From the IMG/VR virus record IMGVR_UViG_2703718850_000013: a stretch of DNA of 32,125 nucleotides; one strand, 5' to 3'. Each line of letters begins with the position of its first letter. The stretch's first letter is position 1. Both the position numbers and the translations under genes were made by a program. This document shows, piece after piece, positions 4,881-32,125 of the stretch. The stretch comes from a virus. Lineage: Duplodnaviria; Heunggongvirae; Uroviricota; Caudoviricetes. The notes under the pieces are model-generated. The model was not told the DNA's origin and ran no database searches. It saw only the letters and a list, made by a program, of their open reading frames with translations.

Positions 4881-4896
4881 GAACAGTTGGACTATG

Positions 4897-5024
4897 TTCT
4901 TATGTTCTTATGTTCTTATGTTCTTATGTTCTTATGTTCTTATGTTCTTATGTTCTTATGTTCTTATGTTCTTATGTTCTTATGTTCTTATGTTCTTATG
5001 TTCTTATGTTCTTATGTTCTTATG
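4897..5024. repeat. perfect tandem array, 16 x TTCTTATG (CATAAGAA on the minus strand)
   Basis: 128 nt of uninterrupted 8-nt periodicity read directly; intergenic between the HNH gene stop (5053) and the start of the 4747 operon. Confidence 0.95.
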
Positions 5025-5052
5025 TCTATATTTCTCAACCTTTAGTTGAAAA

Positions 5053-7132: not shown

Positions 7133-7909
7133 TTATTTTATGGGTAAAATTTTCTTTATTTCATTTTCGGCGGCAAAATGATTGTTTAACTGCTCATAAT
7201 ATTTTGACATCATAACTGAATTTTTTAGACGCTGAATCTTATCTTTTTTCCATTGTGCGAGATAATAGGAACCTGAAAGTTGTTCTACAGCAGAGTAAAA
7301 ATATTCTTTAAGGGTAGAGCACCAAAAATAGTTAAAGCTAACAATATCTTTTTCAAGTTGATACGACTCAAAGACATAACCTGCATTGGCATTCCAATAT
7401 TTCATTATGCGAATAAGAGGCTTAATTAAATTGTTATTATTTTTATTGCAATTAGTTAAATCAGTATTGAACGCATTGGGATCGGTATTCATCCAACGGT
7501 TCAAAAAATCCTGGTTGGAAGGGATTTGATAACCAAATAAAATATTATGAGATGCAGGGACAAGCTCGAAAGTAATATGATTAAGGTTCAATTGAATAGT
7601 AGGGTGGCTTTGCTTTATTTCAGATGTACGATAGTAATAATTTACAAAACCCCTTAGCTTGTTTAGGTAGGTCTGAGGCTGATATATTACATTTTTGAAT
7701 ACAACCATATAATCAACATCAGAAGAAGGATCATAGCTACGAGGAAGCATTGTATTACGTGAATATGAGCCAAATACAAAATGACTAACAAGTTCACCAG
7801 CAAAATAACCATTCAGTCTGTTTTTTATGGTTGCAATTGAATTCGTTATTGTAATATCTCTTTGATAAGCATTGCTTTTAATAGACTCAAGATAGGTACT
7901 GACTGTCAT
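7133..7909 (-). CDS. pol-beta-type nucleotidyltransferase, SMODS/CD-NTase-like
   Basis: FGSYSRNT...SDVDY (hG[GS]-x9-13-DxD) plus a later acidic residue (FELVP); AAGGAA SD 6 nt upstream; start lies 2 nt after the upstream gene's stop. Confidence 0.6.
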   Translation of the reverse strand: MTVSTYLESIKSNAYQRDITITNSIATIKNRLNGYFAGELVSHFVFGSYSRNTMLPRSYDPSSDVDYMVVFKNVIYQPQTYLNKLRGFVNYYYRTSEIKQSHPTIQLNLNHITFELVPASHNILFGYQIPSNQDFLNRWMNTDPNAFNTDLTNCNKNNNNLIKPLIRIMKYWNANAGYVFESYQLEKDIVSFNYFWCSTLKEYFYSAVEQLSGSYYLAQWKKDKIQRLKNSVMMSKYYEQLNNHFAAENEIKKILPIK

Positions 7910-7911
7910 GT

Positions 7912-8415
7912 TTATTCCTTGTCAATATTATACTTAGTAAAGCCTTGGTTAACATCTCTTTGAGTTTTCTCATAAGCCCACCGAGGAATATTTGGCGAAC
8001 TTGAATTAAGTTGATTGCGTCGATCAGAGTAACTCGTAAGTTTTTCAATCAAAGTTTTATCAGTAAAATCAAAATTAGAAGTCAATATTTCCCTAAATAT
8101 TCTAACTTCATTCTTTAATTTATTATATTCATTTGCTGCTGATTTATGAAGTGCAGCACGCTTACTTGGGTTAAGAGACGTATTTAATGCAGTTAGAATT
8201 GTAGCAGTTATGGAAATAGCTACAACAGCATTGGCTGTACTCTTGATTGCGGCAATACCACTCAAAGCGGTTAAGATTGCTAATGGTACACCGAACCACA
8301 GATTCAGCTTATCCCATCTATCAGAAACATTATAATGAGATTTAGAAGAGTACAGAGCGTCCTCTTCTATACGATGACACTCAGAAATGACTGTTTGGAT
8401 GAGCTTCTGATTCAT
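7912..8415 (-). CDS. 2TM membrane protein, SLATT-like effector candidate (start re-chosen)
   Basis: About 40-aa N-terminal region, two TM helices (LWFGVPLAILTALSGIAAI; AVVAISITATILTAL), helical C-terminal region; tightly coupled to the nucleotidyltransferase gene. ATG at 8413-8415 has a GGAG SD; the track start is a GTG two codons upstream. Confidence 0.55.
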   Translation of the reverse strand: MNQKLIQTVISECHRIEEDALYSSKSHYNVSDRWDKLNLWFGVPLAILTALSGIAAIKSTANAVVAISITATILTALNTSLNPSKRAALHKSAANEYNKLKNEVRIFREILTSNFDFTDKTLIEKLTSYSDRRNQLNSSSPNIPRWAYEKTQRDVNQGFTKYNIDKE

Positions 8416-8579
8416 AAACACTCCAACAAATCCGATTCCCTAACAGTATAACATGGTAGGGTTAATAAATACTATAGGTACTTCCCTCTGAATAGACACA
8501 ATCGGGAAGTTTCGCCGCGAACTATTTTTTTTGCATATTAAATATTTTAAATAACACAAACAAAACCTGGATAAACAAA

Positions 8580-28716: not shown

Positions 28717-28983
28717 ATGGTAGAATTAGTAATTGCAGGGATTGCAGTTTTTCTAACTTTTGTAGCATTAATCTGGACTATCATTCGTGATAATAAGACC
28801 GATGATGCAGAAATAGAAGCACGTCTTGCCTCTGTAGAAACACGACTTGCACTTGTAGAACAATCTGTTACTACATTACGAAGTGAGCATGAAGCTATGA
28901 AGATTACTCTTAAGTCAGTTGATGAATCAATCAGACGACTTGAAGTAGATATTGCACGTATTCTTGTGATACTTGAAAAATAA
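28717..28983 (+). CDS. small membrane protein with coiled coil (88 aa); lysis-associated candidate
   Basis: N-terminal TM helix (LVIAGIAVFLTFVALIWTII) followed by a heptad-like helical region. Confidence 0.4.
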   Translation: MVELVIAGIAVFLTFVALIWTIIRDNKTDDAEIEARLASVETRLALVEQSVTTLRSEHEAMKITLKSVDESIRRLEVDIARILVILEK

Positions 28984-28985
28984 AA

Positions 28986-29010
28986 GGGGCATTAATGCCC
29001 CTTTTTATTT
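28986..29010. terminator. bidirectional intrinsic terminator GGGGCATTAATGCCCC + T-tract
   Basis: Perfect 16-bp palindrome flanked by an A-run upstream and a T-run downstream, between convergent genes; it overlaps the endolysin stop codon. Confidence 0.7.
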
Positions 29011-29451
29011 GTTAATTAAATCTTTAATCATCTGGTTAAGTCTATTCGGTGTCTGACGATACCATAAACTATCCTTTGCCTGTTTAATTGCTTCTGTGTA
29101 ATTATTGTTTAGTAATGCAATGATCATCTTTTTAAACTTCTTAGTACCACTTAAGCCTAACTGAAAAATCATGATAACCATGAAGTCTTCCCAGTCCTGT
29201 GGTAATTTCAAATTTAAGGTAGATAAATTACGTTTGGCAATGCCAATATCTTTATCCAGTAGTTTATCTGCTTCATCCTCGTTAATGCCGTTAGGGAACG
29301 TCTCAGAGGCTTTTAGAAGATGTCCATATCCAATCGTATCTTTGTTCTCACTACATTTATACACCCAGAATTTACCATTGCGATAATAACCCATATGGGC
29401 CTGGTATTCTTTCGTACCTTCATATATTTTTAATTTTTCTATTAAACACAT
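29005..29451 (-). CDS. endolysin, GH24 T4-lysozyme-like (start corrected)
   Basis: DTIGYGHLL and SLWYRQTPNRLNQMI align with T4 lysozyme TIGIGHLL and SRWYNQTPNRAKRVI; the ATG at 29449-29451 has a GAGG SD, whereas the track start at 29505 adds 18 residues with no counterpart. Confidence 0.85.
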   Translation of the reverse strand: MCLIEKLKIYEGTKEYQAHMGYYRNGKFWVYKCSENKDTIGYGHLLKASETFPNGINEDEADKLLDKDIGIAKRNLSTLNLKLPQDWEDFMVIMIFQLGLSGTKKFKKMIIALLNNNYTEAIKQAKDSLWYRQTPNRLNQMIKDLINK

Positions 29452-29487
29452 AAATACCTCATAAACTATTATTTGTGGGGTATTTAT

Positions 29488-29916
29488 ATGAAATGGACAA
29501 TGCATGATCCTGAGACATGGGATTATGAAGATATAAATGACGGGAGGTATGCAGCTTTTGTATATATGATCACTTTTGACGATGGTTCATATTATTTTGG
29601 TGTAAAGTCAATCTTCAAAAGTATTCGGGATGTAAAGAAGCTGAAGCCAACTACAAAGGAATCCAACTGGGAGAATTATTATTCTTCCTCGAAGAAGGTG
29701 CAGGCAATGGTTGATTCAGGCCTGAACTATGAAAAACAAATACTATGGTGTTTCAGAACGACGAATGAAGCTGAGCAAGTAGAAGCGGCATTGATTCTAT
29801 TCTTAGGACAGCAATCAAATAATTTAAATCTTGCCGTGATGTGCAAAGTACGGCTTGGTAAAAATCGTTCTGAAACATTCAAAGTACTGCAACAATTATT
29901 AGAGAGGTTATCATGA
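29488..29916 (+). CDS. hypothetical protein, possible stand-alone GIY-YIG nuclease domain
   Basis: FVY-x10-YFG then Arg, Glu and Asn at roughly GIY-YIG spacing; weak. Start set at ATG 29488 (track start 29473 is TTG). Confidence 0.35.
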   Translation: MKWTMHDPETWDYEDINDGRYAAFVYMITFDDGSYYFGVKSIFKSIRDVKKLKPTTKESNWENYYSSSKKVQAMVDSGLNYEKQILWCFRTTNEAEQVEAALILFLGQQSNNLNLAVMCKVRLGKNRSETFKVLQQLLERLS

Positions 29917-30506
29917 AATGGAAAAATGGTCATTCACCAGATGATATGAAGAAATTTGTTAATAAAAATTCCCCAAAGATCGGTAAAGACTTCAAAAAAG
30001 AACTAAGTAACCGTATGCGTAATGTTACCCAACAGATACAGCAGAAAATTAACCAGGAAGTAGAGGGTGGTGTAATTCCATATACGGGTAGGGCGATGTA
30101 CTTTAATTTTAAACGGCTTAATGAATTTGAGAGTGTAAACCAGATTATAGTACTGGGAAATCAGGCGAGATACTTAAAGCATATTATTGACCCTGATTAT
30201 GTAGGGAATAAGGAATATAAAGCGATCCCATACCAAAACGCCAAGAAGACAAAACAGGGCAATATAACTCAACTTAAATCAAAGCGTAAGAACGATAAAT
30301 ATAAAAAAGTGAAGAGTAAGACGTCTGGAAAGACATATCTAATCGACACTACCAAGAAGACGAAAACGAGTAAGGAACGTGTTATTGGTTATTATGGAAG
30401 TGTTGGAAGAAAACCAATATTTGATTTTTATGACACAACCGAAAAAATGGTATTACGACAACTTCAAACTATGCGTGGTACATTCGAATATAAATGGAGA
30501 AAATAA
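29913..30506 (+). CDS. hypothetical lysine-rich protein (197 aa)
   Basis: ORF with ATGA overlap to the upstream gene; highly basic. Confidence 0.45.
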   Translation: MKWKNGHSPDDMKKFVNKNSPKIGKDFKKELSNRMRNVTQQIQQKINQEVEGGVIPYTGRAMYFNFKRLNEFESVNQIIVLGNQARYLKHIIDPDYVGNKEYKAIPYQNAKKTKQGNITQLKSKRKNDKYKKVKSKTSGKTYLIDTTKKTKTSKERVIGYYGSVGRKPIFDFYDTTEKMVLRQLQTMRGTFEYKWRK

Positions 30507-30826
30507 TGAATATACTTGATCAATATCCCTGTTATGACCATACCGTACTGGATGAATTCCTATTTCAAAACGTCAAACCTGTAAGTGTTACTTTGCCATA
30601 TGACAAAGTGTTTTCGGGTAGCAAGTTAATTAAAAAGAAGGTAGATAAGAGTAAAGGGGATTTGATCGTATTCAGTTTCAATCTAAACAATATTCCGAAT
30701 GTTAATGATGGTGATGTACTCGATACAGTATGTCTTGGTGATAATAAGACAGTAGCAGTACTGTCATGCTTTAATCAAGTCTACAAAGGTCATCGCGTTT
30801 GGTCTGTCGTATGCCAGTTACAATAA
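30494..30826 (+). CDS. hypothetical protein (110 aa)
   Basis: ORF overlapping the upstream gene end; no motif. Confidence 0.4.
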   Translation: MEKIMNILDQYPCYDHTVLDEFLFQNVKPVSVTLPYDKVFSGSKLIKKKVDKSKGDLIVFSFNLNNIPNVNDGDVLDTVCLGDNKTVAVLSCFNQVYKGHRVWSVVCQLQ

Positions 30827-30837
30827 GGAAATGAAAT

Positions 30838-31131
30838 ATGATAAATGCAATATCCGTATTAATTAGTACAATAATGAGTGTTTTTACAAAGACAAAATTA
30901 ATTGAAAAAGAGGAACATAGAACTAACACTGAAGGACAGATTGAGACAAATAAAATTGAAATTGAGCAAAACACCTTTCACTGGAGAAACTTCCTTGGTT
31001 TTGTACTTTCCCTAATCATTTTATATAATTGGATAATTGTACCTGTTCTTGATGCGTTTGGTATTGTATTAATACAAGTTCCACTAGGTGAGCTACTACA
31101 GATACTTTTAATCATGGTGGGTGGTGGTTGA
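30838..31131 (+). CDS. small membrane protein, holin-like candidate (97 aa)
   Basis: AAGGAAA SD; two C-terminal hydrophobic helices (FLGFVLSLIILYNWIIVPVL; LLQILLIMVGG). Confidence 0.4.
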   Translation: MINAISVLISTIMSVFTKTKLIEKEEHRTNTEGQIETNKIEIEQNTFHWRNFLGFVLSLIILYNWIIVPVLDAFGIVLIQVPLGELLQILLIMVGGG

Positions 31132-31162: not shown

Positions 31163-32125
31163 TTAATCTATACGTTTATTATTGTACGTATCGTGACTAA
31201 ATCTATTTGTCTGTCTTTTTTCTGCTGACTCTAAGAATTGGACTACTGGGCTTATATATTCATCCCAACGAGTCTTATTAAATTTAGATACTATTCTATA
31301 AACCATAAAAATAGGTTGATTAGTAAATGTATAGTTGCTAAACCATCTGTTTCCTATTTTGTTTTTTAATCTTTTGAAATATTTATGGTAATTAACTTTA
31401 CCATCTTCTTCTAAAAATTGAATGTCTTTAGAAAAATTTATGATCTCTAAGGTTTCTTTTTTTTCTCTGCAAATATCCTTGAGACTAAGCATTATATTTT
31501 TATTGGAATTTTCATCAGTTGTTTTATCTAGCCAAGAATGAAGTTCATTTTCTTTATCTTTAAATACATTGTTTATTTTGTCTTCGTCGATTTCATCCAT
31601 CATATTTTTTAAATTTAACTCCGGCTTTCCCTTTATATTTTTTTTTGACAGGAGAGCCGTTGGAATATTGAAGCTAGTTATATGTTGACTTATCTGTTCT
31701 GTTATTTCTTCTAACATCTCTGGGATGAAATCACCTTCATATATTTTAGAAATCATATCTTCTATTTCACGCTTGCTAATATCACCATCGACTACGCCAA
31801 CTACTTCCAGTACCTTTTCATTCCCTGTTTTTATTAATTCTTTAGAATATAGTAGGCACCCAGCTAATGATATAATTATATTAGCCCACGAACCACATCG
31901 CCTAAAATTAAATGATCCTACATTCATTTTCCGATATGATAATGAATGAATAATTAATTCCTCAGCTACTTTGTCTTCGCAAAAAACAATAACAGGAGGA
32001 ATATTGTATGAATTGAAACTACGGGTGTTTGTTATTATAATTTCAGATGTATCACCATGATTGGTTTTCGTAATTGTTTGAGTACCAATTACACCTATTC
32101 CACAATTTATTTTATATTTGTTCAT
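31163..32125 (-). CDS. TOPRIM-like nuclease-domain protein (OLD / AriB-like candidate)
   Basis: Conserved Glu in VIVFCEDKVAEEL followed about 65 residues later by VVGVVDGD (DxD); the ATG sits exactly at the window edge, so the N-terminus and any upstream partner gene cannot be assessed. Confidence 0.45.
   Translation of the reverse strand: MNKYKINCGIGVIGTQTITKTNHGDTSEIIITNTRSFNSYNIPPVIVFCEDKVAEELIIHSLSYRKMNVGSFNFRRCGSWANIIISLAGCLLYSKELIKTGNEKVLEVVGVVDGDISKREIEDMISKIYEGDFIPEMLEEITEQISQHITSFNIPTALLSKKNIKGKPELNLKNMMDEIDEDKINNVFKDKENELHSWLDKTTDENSNKNIMLSLKDICREKKETLEIINFSKDIQFLEEDGKVNYHKYFKRLKNKIGNRWFSNYTFTNQPIFMVYRIVSKFNKTRWDEYISPVVQFLESAEKRQTNRFSHDTYNNKRID

What the first reader, a model, noticed from the sequence alone, without database searches (positions are those of the whole stretch)
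28984..29451. Solitary reversed endolysin with bidirectional terminator and no adjacent holin
The GH24 lysozyme gene is on the minus strand between plus-strand genes and ends inside a perfect palindromic terminator shared with the upstream gene. No holin-like gene is co-oriented with it; the small membrane proteins nearby are on the other strand. The encoded N-terminus has no signal or SAR segment. Lysis timing must therefore be organised unconventionally, or the lysozyme has another role.
Basis: partly seen in the sequence, partly recalled or inferred. Interest (0 to 1): 0.4.

Follow-up and report, generated by a model that had tools for sequence, protein, structure and literature searches.

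The report
Reversed endolysin gene in prophage lysis module
The reversed gene is the ordinary cell-wall-cutting enzyme of an unstudied E. coli prophage; a holin gene sits 1.4 kb away on the other strand, so only the gene layout is unusual, not the likely way the cell is lysed.

Summary
Window 29005-29451 (-) encodes a 148-aa soluble T4-type (GH24) lysozyme. It lies between plus-strand genes and ends at a perfect bidirectional hairpin terminator shared with the upstream gene. It has no signal or SAR segment and no co-oriented holin.

The inference that timing must be unconventional, or that the enzyme has another role, is not supported. The window is most of a ~35-kb, 37% GC prophage of Escherichia coli. 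The lysozyme is its only recognisable muralytic enzyme.

It belongs to a conserved module: tail-tip gene, 88-aa membrane-anchored coiled-coil protein (weakly DUF2730/Mu gp25-like), terminator, lysozyme, GIY-YIG protein, p197, p110, 97-aa 3TM-type holin (PF11351).
- Twelve of fourteen distinct related loci carrying the full module have the lysozyme reversed.
- Two distinct lineages (Yersinia pekkanenii and a 75%-identical viral contig) have the same gene order with the lysozyme co-linear and packed against the holin operon.
- The catalytic Glu and Thr are kept. The Asp20 position is Cys, a substitution reported to retain activity.

Extra features are a conserved 22-41-bp dyad-symmetric spacer between the divergent starts, and no spanin. 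Unlinked lysis genes are documented in P1.

Verdict: a new layout variant of a known system, of low-to-moderate interest.

The parts
28717..28983 (+). 88-aa protein (called TMCC88 here) with an N-terminal transmembrane helix and an acidic coiled coil. It is the last gene before the terminator, so probably the last gene of the late structural operon. It is a distant DUF2730 (Mu gp25 'releasin')-like candidate.
   Evidence: TM-like segment at residues 1-19; K+R 11, D+E 15. The AlphaFold2 model is one long helix. The N-flank is always acidic and an R/K-D motif follows the TMD in all 11 family members, which suggests N-out/C-in topology. PF10805 matches are weak: 16.5 bits against a cut-off of 24.9, seen in 5/11 members. 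PF10805 is on record for 24/42 database relatives. UniRef names the E. marmotae copy 'DUF2730 family protein'. hhalign against Mu gp25 gives only 21% probability.
28982..29005 (.). Bidirectional intrinsic terminator, a perfect palindrome. It is shared by the convergent 28717-28983 gene and the lysozyme gene.
   Evidence: 10-bp stem with a 4-nt loop, -16.7/-16.9 kcal/mol, z -3.4/-3.9, U-tract on both strands. A G+C hairpin at the same junction is present in all reversed relatives, with different stem sequences.
29005..29451 (-). Soluble GH24 (T4-type) lysozyme of 148 aa, the element's endolysin. Its catalytic positions are Glu11, Cys33 (T4L Asp20 position) and Thr39 (T4L Thr26).
   Evidence: It has no TM, signal or SAR segment. 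The exact protein occurs in many Escherichia genomes, named 'glycoside hydrolase family protein' or 'lysozyme'.
29447..29490 (.). Dyad-symmetric divergent junction. The 36-bp spacer (29452-29487) plus both start codons carries the two mirrored ribosome-binding regions. It is a candidate shared control region.
   Evidence: Inverted repeat I4, 19-nt arms, 84% complementary. As RNA it folds at -15.3 kcal/mol (lysozyme sense) and -18.0 kcal/mol (GIY sense), z -4.1/-5.5. The hairpin pairs the SD and AUG of the downstream gene. Its function is inferred, not shown.
29488..29916 (+). 142-aa SegE-like GIY-YIG nuclease-domain protein, the first gene of the divergent operon.
   Evidence: PF19835 E=3.5e-17; PHROG homing endonuclease E=7e-14. 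It lies next to the lysozyme in every related locus at 35-56% identity, so it is not a recent insertion. It is truncated in one E. coli copy, L003.
29913..30506 (+). 197-aa very basic protein (called p197 here) of unknown function.
   Evidence: K+R 45, D+E 18. No family match in Pfam, PHROGs, NCBIfam or PADLOC. Only 22 representatives among 1.84 billion proteins. Conserved in the module. The AlphaFold2 model is unusable, pLDDT 41.
30494..30826 (+). 110-aa protein (called p110 here) of unknown function.
   Evidence: No family match. Sequence homologues were found only in the co-linear Yersinia-type loci and in near-identical copies. Other relatives carry an unrelated ~103-110-aa ORF at this position.
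30838..31131 (+). 97-aa 3TM-type holin candidate (called HOL97 here), the last gene of the divergent operon.
   Evidence: PF11351 GTA_holin_3TM at 21.5 bits against a cut-off of 24.8 for this copy. Seven of 11 family members match, best E=2.2e-6. Two C-terminal TM-like segments plus an N-terminal amphipathic segment. Many relatives at about 70% identity are named '3TM-type holin' and carry PF11351. ICP1 TeaA, another PF11351 protein, behaved as a holin in expression assays (PMC7182436).

Best explanation
What it is. Window 29005-29451 (-) is the endolysin gene of a ~35-kb, 37% GC siphovirus-type prophage of Escherichia coli. The prophage is inserted between yggS and yggR.

How it most likely works. 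The enzyme is a soluble T4-type lysozyme. It accumulates harmlessly in the cytoplasm and reaches the wall only when the 97-aa 3TM-type holin (30838-31131, +) permeabilises the inner membrane. This is the conventional holin-endolysin pathway, with timing set by the holin protein. Strand orientation of the lysozyme gene is therefore irrelevant to timing.

Transcription layout (inferred).
- The late structural operon ends with the membrane-anchored coiled-coil gene 28717-28983, at the hairpin 28982-29005.
- The lysozyme is a monocistronic unit that runs into the same hairpin from the other side.
- The lysozyme and the GIY-YIG/p197/p110/holin operon start back to back across a 36-bp dyad-symmetric spacer. 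They are probably switched on together.

Accessory protein (inferred). The 88-aa protein is most likely an accessory membrane factor. It resembles the Mu gp25 DUF2730 type, or an antiholin-type factor, rather than a spanin.

Shown: gene identities, orientation, terminator structure, conservation of the module and its hairpins, and the co-linear variant in relatives.
Inferred: promoters, co-regulation, holin function and the role of the 88-aa protein.
For: Lysozyme identity and catalytic residues.
- Lysozyme family matches.
- Glu11 and Thr39 are invariant. The T4L Asp20 position is Cys33 here and in the Yersinia pekkanenii relative L023.
- D20C/A are reported as the only Asp20 substitutions that keep T4L/P22 lysozyme activity, and as common in phage sequences (bioRxiv 10.1101/418723).
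- The best PDB hit carries Cys at the T4L Asp20 position and aligns YKC with YKC.
- There is no TM, signal or SAR segment.
- No other muralytic enzyme was recognised among the structural and neighbouring genes.

Holin. PF11351 matches and '3TM-type holin' relatives. A PF11351 member behaved as a holin in expression assays.

Conservation. The module is conserved in 14 distinct related loci at 54-94% lysozyme identity. Twelve are reversed. Two lineages are co-linear, with the lysozyme stop overlapping or within 4 nt of the next gene's start.

Hairpins. The terminator is conserved with different stem sequences. The dyad spacer is conserved.

Precedent. P1 lysis genes sit in three unlinked operons (PMC9025707).
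Against: - No convincing sigma-70 promoter was found for either divergent unit. The scan gave 10 promoter-like sites in the region against 20 expected from shuffles.
- The dyad hairpin would occlude both ribosome-binding sites in any transcript that starts upstream of it.
- The window's own holin copy scores below the Pfam cut-off.
- No spanin gene could be found, although the host is Gram-negative.
- The canonical Asp20 is replaced by Cys.
- Some E. coli copies are decaying. Strain N61 has a 1-bp insertion that frameshifts the lysozyme.
- No function was tested experimentally.
Confidence: 0.65

Rival explanations
1. Partner is the 88-aa protein, not the 3TM protein. Lysis would then work more like the Mu system. 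A membrane-tethered DUF2730-type protein encoded convergently next door controls endolysin action, or is itself a single-TMD holin or antiholin. The 3TM protein would be accessory.
For: The gene directly abuts the lysozyme and shares its terminator in every relative. PF10805 is the only family-specific match that recurs: 5/11 members, 24/42 database relatives, and the UniRef name. Topology and size resemble Mu gp25. Chamblee et al. found DUF2730 genes within 5 genes of the endolysin, including next to endolysins without SAR domains (PMC9239132).
Against: All PF10805 scores are below the curated cut-off, and coiled-coil families match equally well. hhalign against Mu gp25 gives only 21% probability. 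The known releasin activity is release of SAR endolysins, and this lysozyme has no SAR domain. A soluble endolysin still needs a hole-forming holin, and a good candidate is present.
Confidence: 0.15
2. Mobile pair. The lysozyme gene and the GIY-YIG gene travel together as a homing-endonuclease-plus-flanking-marker unit. The reversed orientation would be a by-product of how that unit was acquired or rearranged, with no regulatory meaning.
For: A SegE-like GIY-YIG gene lies next to the lysozyme in all relatives. An unrelated Aeromonas phage region also has a GIY-YIG gene divergent from a T4-type lysozyme across a 40-bp spacer. Both orientations occur within the family.
Against: The pair is stably inherited with its neighbours at 35-56% GIY-YIG identity, which is not the patchy distribution typical of homing genes. 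The protein is only 142 aa, and the family scans recognised nothing beyond the GIY-YIG nuclease domain. The conserved terminator and dyad at the two junctions point to selection on expression signals.
Confidence: 0.1
3. Non-lysis role. The lysozyme would be a virion-associated or entry enzyme, or a host-beneficial enzyme expressed from the prophage. Its separate orientation would reflect separate regulation.
For: The best PHROG match is to C-terminal lysozyme domains of baseplate-hub or tail-lysozyme proteins of jumbo phages (E=3e-36; 44% identity). The gene lies just after the tail genes. It is monocistronic.
Against: It is a bare 148-aa catalytic domain with no structural or anchoring domain. 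It is the only muralytic enzyme in an element that also carries a holin. In two lineages it heads the holin operon.
Confidence: 0.05
4. Rearrangement scar. The layout would be damage in a decaying, non-functional prophage and would have no working logic.
For: The element is rare, in 3 of 5426 complete E. coli genomes. Some copies carry frameshifts or truncations in the lysozyme, GIY-YIG or the 320-aa gene. No repressor or replication genes were recognised. No isolated phage is related.
Against: The reversed layout has intact ORFs, a terminator and a dyad in 12 loci from at least six genera at 54-63% lysozyme identity. That requires long-term purifying selection.
Confidence: 0.05

Closest known systems
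T4 lysozyme (gene e) and other soluble GH24 endolysins such as P22 gp19
   Same: Same family (PF00959). The catalytic Glu11 and Thr26 equivalents are conserved. The protein is soluble and cytoplasmic, so it depends on a holin. In T4 the endolysin gene is also not next to the holin gene t (my own knowledge).
   Different: Only about 36% identical to T4L. It has a 13-residue insertion between Glu11 and the Asp20 position, shared with jumbo-phage tail lysozyme domains. The Asp20 position is Cys, the natural counterpart of the engineered D20C substitution in T4 lysozyme.
Phage P1 lysis system (Lyz; LydA/LydB; spanins)
   Same: Endolysin, holin/antiholin and other lysis genes sit in separate transcription units rather than one cassette (PMC9025707).
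   Different: P1 Lyz is a SAR endolysin and its operons are far apart. Here the endolysin is soluble and the two units are back to back across 36 bp. No spanin was identified here.
Lambda S-R-Rz/Rz1 lysis cassette
   Same: Presumed functional logic: a holin times release of a cytoplasmic muralytic enzyme.
   Different: The genes are not contiguous and not co-transcribed. The endolysin is reversed. Three unrelated genes lie between the endolysin and the holin. The module sits after the tail genes, not before the terminase. No Rz/Rz1 equivalents were found.
Phage Mu gp22/gp25 (SAR endolysin and DUF2730 'releasin')
   Same: [quoted passage not shown]
   Different: Sequence similarity is marginal. 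The endolysin here has no SAR domain. A holin candidate is present, whereas Mu has none. The element has a lambda GpA-type terminase, which Mu-type transposable phages do not use (my own knowledge). Chamblee et al. found DUF2730 proteins only in transposable phages among isolated phages.
3TM holins of family PF11351 (ICP1 TeaA; gene-transfer-agent holin)
   Same: The 97-aa protein and its relatives match PF11351 and share the architecture. TeaA collapsed the proton motive force and was triggered by an energy poison in expression assays.
   Different: The window copy is just below the Pfam cut-off. No antiholin partner such as ArrA was identified. Function is untested.

Membership tests
GH24 / T4-type phage lysozyme (PF00959) | Profile match above the curated cut-off | tested here: met
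   37.7 bits against a cut-off of 22.3, E=3e-9. T4 lysozyme PDB chains at E~1e-12.
GH24 / T4-type phage lysozyme (PF00959) | Catalytic Glu (T4L Glu11) and Thr (T4L Thr26) | tested here: met
   Glu11 and Thr39 are invariant in the alignment with T4L and P22 lysozyme.
GH24 / T4-type phage lysozyme (PF00959) | Asp at the T4L Asp20 position | tested here: not met
   The position is Cys33 in the window, in L006 and in L023; it is Asp in the other aligned relatives. D20C is reported to retain activity and to occur naturally. The best PDB hit aligns YKC with YKC. This does not exclude membership.
GH24 / T4-type phage lysozyme (PF00959) | Muralytic activity | not testable with these tools
   Needs an enzyme assay.
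Soluble (holin-dependent) endolysin, as opposed to SAR or signal-peptide endolysin | No N-terminal hydrophobic, signal or SAR segment | tested here: met
   No TM-like window was found. The N-terminus is hydrophilic and the catalytic Glu is at residue 11.
3TM-type holin (PF11351) for 30838-31131 | Profile match above the curated cut-off | tested here: inconclusive
   The window copy scores 21.5 bits against a cut-off of 24.8. Seven of 11 family members match, best E=2.2e-6. Relatives at about 70% identity carry PF11351 and the name '3TM-type holin'.
3TM-type holin (PF11351) for 30838-31131 | Small membrane protein with several TM segments, encoded in a lysis context | tested here: met
   97 aa. 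Two C-terminal TM-like segments plus a hydrophobic or amphipathic N-terminus. It lies in the same module as the endolysin in all relatives.
3TM-type holin (PF11351) for 30838-31131 | Hole formation, collapse of the proton motive force and triggering by energy poisons | not testable with these tools
   Needs expression assays.
DUF2730 / Mu gp25 releasin (PF10805) for 28717-28983 | Profile match above the curated cut-off | tested here: not met
   16.5 bits against a cut-off of 24.9. Five of 11 members match weakly, best E=0.0015, among many generic coiled-coil matches. hhalign against Mu gp25 gives 21% probability. PF10805 is on record for 24/42 relatives. The relationship is possible but unproven.
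DUF2730 / Mu gp25 releasin (PF10805) for 28717-28983 | N-terminal TMD with N-out/C-in topology, an acidic cytoplasmic helical domain, and a gene within a few genes of the endolysin | tested here: met
   Charge distribution in 11 members. TM segment at 1-19 and net acidic composition. Single-helix model. The gene is adjacent to the lysozyme. The criteria come from PMC9239132.
Spanins (Rz/Rz1-type or unimolecular) | Outer-membrane lipoprotein with a lipobox, with or without a type II inner-membrane partner | tested here: not met
   No plausible lipobox ORF was found in any frame of the window. The 88-aa protein has the opposite predicted topology to an i-spanin.
Lambda-type contiguous lysis cassette | Holin, endolysin and spanin genes adjacent, co-oriented and co-transcribed | tested here: not met
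   The endolysin is reversed. Three other genes lie between it and the holin. No spanin was found.
Bidirectional intrinsic terminator | G+C-rich hairpin flanked by an A-run and a T-run, so that either strand reads a hairpin followed by a U-tract | tested here: met
   It is conserved with different stems in relatives. Termination itself was not tested.
Invertible (phase-variable) DNA segment | Inverted repeats flanking the segment, and both orientations present in one population | tested here: not met
   Only a weak 16-nt, 81% repeat flanks the gene (I6). All three complete E. coli copies, and the four contigs fetched with their gene tables, are colinear with the window.

The most novel reading that the evidence does not exclude
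The module could be a distinct 'lysis divergon'. In this reading the endolysin and the holin operon fire back to back from a 22-41-bp dyad-symmetric element. That element acts as a shared operator, or as an RNA hairpin that masks both ribosome-binding sites, and so couples or delays their expression. A DUF2730-like membrane protein made with the virion proteins modulates the holin or endolysin outside the Mu-type phages. Outer-membrane disruption is done without spanins, possibly by the very basic 197-aa protein.
Probability: 0.15. Interest if true: 0.5.

Novelty: new variant of a known kind. Interest (0 to 1): 0.3.

Why it matters
If the reading is right, nothing about the mechanism of phage lysis needs revising. 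The finding is a clean example that endolysin and holin genes need not be co-oriented.

Three things give it modest value.
- It documents a conserved layout in a family of Enterobacterales prophages that has no isolated representative.
- The family contains natural 'inverted' and 'co-linear' versions of the same module. That is a ready-made comparison for asking whether gene orientation affects lysis timing.
- The family offers a DUF2730-like protein next to a soluble endolysin, a natural Cys at the Asp20 position of a GH24 lysozyme, and an apparently spanin-less system in E. coli. Each is directly testable in a tractable host.

Tried and rejected
- Megablast of the region against 50,697 phage records found nothing. 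tblastn of the holin candidate against the same records found nothing. The best large-terminase match is 34% identical. No isolated relative is therefore available to borrow annotation from.
- Rfam scan of the whole window found nothing.
- Spanin search by lipobox in all six frames, strict and relaxed, gave only spurious antisense ORFs.
- i-spanin reading of the 88-aa protein: rejected on its charge topology and the lack of a lipoprotein partner.
- hhalign of the 88-aa family against Mu gp25: 21% probability, inconclusive.
- AlphaFold2 of the 88-aa protein gave one long helix, which is uninformative.
- AlphaFold2 of p197 with a 12-sequence alignment gave pLDDT 41, so no fold search was run.
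- Exhaustive HMMER search with p197 gave 22 representatives and no link to a known family. NCBIfam and PADLOC gave nothing for p197, p110 or the 320-aa gene.
- Hidden minus-strand holin: a hydrophobic antisense ORF lies opposite the holin linker (30771-30974, -) and recurs in relatives. Its length and start vary, and it mirrors the K/E-rich sense sequence. It was judged an artefact.
- Site-specific inversion switch: there are no good flanking inverted repeats and no orientation polymorphism among E. coli copies.
- Sigma-70 promoter scan: no enrichment and no convincing site for either divergent unit.
- A MAFFT alignment of the dyad spacers was not in register, so no formal covariation count was made. 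The concerted variation of the two arms is a by-eye observation.
- A literature search for reversed endolysin genes gave no direct precedent. The P1 paper gave the precedent for unlinked lysis genes.

Full report
**What is at the coordinates**

The minus-strand ORF listed as 29005-29505 most likely starts at the ATG at 29451. That ATG is preceded by GAGG, and the resulting 148-aa protein aligns from its first residue with its homologues.

The protein is a T4-type GH24 lysozyme:
- Pfam PF00959 at E=3e-9, above the curated cut-off.
- PHROG lysozyme families at up to E=3e-36.
- T4 lysozyme PDB chains at E~1e-12.

Both neighbours are on the plus strand.

Between the stop of 28717-28983 and the lysozyme stop lies AAAAGGGGCATTAATGCCCCTTTT (28982-29005). 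The scan called it a terminator on both strands. It folds at about -17 kcal/mol in either sense, with z -3.4 and -3.9, and a U-run follows on each side. The stop codons touch only the A/T ends of the stem.

The N-terminus is hydrophilic and carries the catalytic Glu at residue 11. No TM-like segment is present.

**Where the window comes from**

The exact proteins occur in many Escherichia assemblies: E. coli, E. albertii, E. marmotae and E. fergusonii.

The element is about 35 kb. It has 37% G+C, in flanks of 51-53%. It is inserted between yggS and yggR/pilT and has a large serine recombinase about 3 kb left of the window.

The window holds a complete siphovirus-type head and tail module and a type I CBASS system.

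The element is rare. It is in 3 of 5426 complete E. coli genomes, always colinear with the window. It has no close relative among 50,697 deposited phage records.

**The module and its relatives**

Fourteen distinct related loci, from IMG/VR contigs and Enterobacterales genomes, carry the same gene set in the same order: tail-tip protein, 88-aa membrane-anchored coiled-coil protein, lysozyme, GIY-YIG protein, p197, a ~105-aa protein, and a 97-aa membrane protein. The genomes are Pluralibacter, Enterobacter, Pseudescherichia, Scandinavium, Pseudocitrobacter, Phytobacter and Yersinia. (L005, near-identical to the window, and L033, identical to L023, are not counted.) A degraded E. coli copy carries the lysozyme-to-holin part, also reversed. 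Lysozyme identity to the window is 54-94%.

In twelve of the fourteen the lysozyme alone is reversed, as in the window.

In two distinct lineages the order is identical but the lysozyme is co-linear. These are Yersinia pekkanenii L023 (identical to viral contig L033) and the 75%-identical L034. In them a terminator follows the 88-aa gene. Then comes a ~100-nt spacer with a conserved TTGATA-17-T(C/T)AAAT motif. Then the lysozyme, whose stop overlaps the GIY-YIG start or lies within 4 nt of it.

The same proteins therefore operate in either orientation. In both layouts the lysozyme-to-holin genes form transcription units separate from the structural operon.

**The junctions are conserved as structures**

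Every reversed locus has a G+C hairpin between the convergent stops. The stem sequences differ, for example GGGGCAT/ATGCCCC, GGGATGG/CCATCCC and GGGCAAG/CTTGCCC. In several loci the hairpin overlaps the last codons of the 88-aa gene.

The divergent starts are only 22-41 bp apart in all but one reversed locus. The spacer is a dyad: CAT-(AT)AAATACC...GGTATTT-ATG, or the AAATATTCC...GGAATATTT variant. In the window it folds at -15.3 and -18.0 kcal/mol, z -4.1 and -5.5, and pairs the Shine-Dalgarno and start codon of the downstream gene in either sense.

Part of the symmetry is simply two mirrored A/T-rich ribosome-binding regions of a type used elsewhere in the element. However, the arms vary together between loci, which suggests selection on the dyad itself. 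Whether it acts as a DNA operator or as an RNA hairpin is unknown. The sigma-70 scan gives no convincing promoter for either unit.

**The partners**

*The 97-aa protein (30838-31131).* It has a hydrophobic or amphipathic N-terminus, a hydrophilic linker and two C-terminal TM-like segments. It matches PF11351 GTA_holin_3TM just below the cut-off. Seven of 11 family members match, down to E=2.2e-6. Hundreds of relatives are known, many named '3TM-type holin'. ICP1 TeaA, another PF11351 protein, behaved as a holin in expression assays (PMC7182436).

*The 88-aa protein.* It is a single long helix. Its N-flank is acidic and an R/K-D motif follows the TMD in all members, which suggests N-out/C-in topology. 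That topology and size match Mu gp25, the DUF2730 'releasin'. Chamblee et al. found relatives of gp25 within five genes of endolysins, including endolysins without SAR domains (PMC9239132). Sequence support is marginal, so membership is unproven.

*Spanins.* None could be found.

*p197.* It is extremely basic, with net charge +27, and is confined to these elements. It gave no usable model.

**Is the enzyme active?**

Glu11 and Thr39 (T4L Thr26) are invariant. The T4L Asp20 position is Cys33 in the window, in L006 and in L023. It is Asp in the other aligned relatives.

D20C and D20A are reported as the only substitutions at this position that retain T4L/P22 lysozyme activity, and as common among phage sequences (bioRxiv 10.1101/418723). 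The best PDB hit carries Cys at the T4L Asp20 position and aligns YKC with YKC. Activity is therefore likely, though untested.

No other muralytic enzyme was recognised in the element.

**Best explanation**

This is a conventional holin-dependent lysis system with an unconventional but conserved gene layout. The soluble lysozyme accumulates in the cytoplasm, and the 3TM holin sets the time of lysis.

The reversed gene is a monocistronic unit. It starts back to back with the holin operon and ends at a terminator shared with the late operon.

Co-transcription is not needed for timing. P1 keeps its endolysin, holin/antiholin and spanin genes in three unlinked operons (PMC9025707).

I put about 0.65 on this. 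The rivals are:
- a Mu-like role for the 88-aa protein;
- a mobile GIY-YIG/lysozyme pair;
- a non-lysis role for the enzyme;
- a scar in a dead prophage.

Each of these has some support, but each fits the conservation data less well.

**Novelty and score**

This is a new layout variant of a known system, in a prophage family without cultured representatives. It is not surprising to a lysis specialist. It does offer natural inverted and co-linear versions of one module, a DUF2730-like protein outside Mu-type phages, a natural Cys at the Asp20 position, and an apparently spanin-less E. coli system. Interest is 0.3.

Noticed in passing
window 4893-5025: A perfect 8-bp microsatellite, TATGTTCT x16.6, lies between two minus-strand accessory genes. 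The position of the downstream gene differs by exactly 8 bp between strains (L014 against L015/L016). This indicates copy-number polymorphism and possible slipped-strand phase variation.
   Followed up: partly
window 7133-8421 (-): A type I CBASS defence system: oligonucleotide cyclase at 7133-7909 (PADLOC E=3.5e-113) and a 2TM effector at 7912-8421 (E=2.2e-70). It sits between the early region and the terminase genes.
   Followed up: partly
whole window plus L014 7137-10000 and L001 6981-8289: The element is about 35 kb with 37% G+C, in E. coli flanks of 51-53%. It lies between yggS and yggR/pilT and has a large serine recombinase at its left end. No repressor or replication genes were recognised, and no relative exists among deposited phages (best terminase identity 34%).
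   Followed up: partly
window ~29260; L003 9536-9745; L004 7328-8289: Some E. coli copies are decaying. A 1-bp insertion frameshifts the lysozyme in strain N61. The GIY-YIG gene is truncated to 69 aa in L003. The 320-aa gene is split in L004.
   Followed up: yes
window 29353-29355 (codon 33 of the lysozyme): A natural Cys occupies the T4 lysozyme Asp20 position. L023, which is only 54% identical, also has it, while the other aligned relatives have Asp. The window protein also has a Cys at residue 2.
   Followed up: partly
window 29913-30506 (+): A 197-aa protein with net charge +27 is conserved between the lysozyme and the holin in all relatives. It has only 22 representatives among 1.84 billion proteins. 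Its function is unknown. In an element without spanins it is a candidate outer-membrane-disrupting or nucleic-acid-binding factor.
   Followed up: partly
L028 7451-8447 (Aeromonas rivipollensis): An unrelated phage region also has a GIY-YIG gene divergent from a T4-type lysozyme across a 40-bp spacer, upstream of the terminase genes. This hints at a recurrent GIY-YIG/lysozyme association.
   Followed up: no
window 30771-30974 (-): A hydrophobic antisense ORF lies opposite the holin's hydrophilic linker, and similar ORFs occur in relatives. It was judged a mirror effect of K/E-rich codons rather than a gene.
   Followed up: partly
L008 460-711: One relative carries a second copy of the 88-aa-type membrane coiled-coil gene, just beyond the holin gene.
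   Followed up: no
window 31163-32125 (-): A 320-aa gene lies at the right end of the element, convergent with the holin gene with only 31 bp between them. It has no family match in four libraries. A 57%-identical homologue is at the same position in the Enterobacter relative L018.
   Followed up: no
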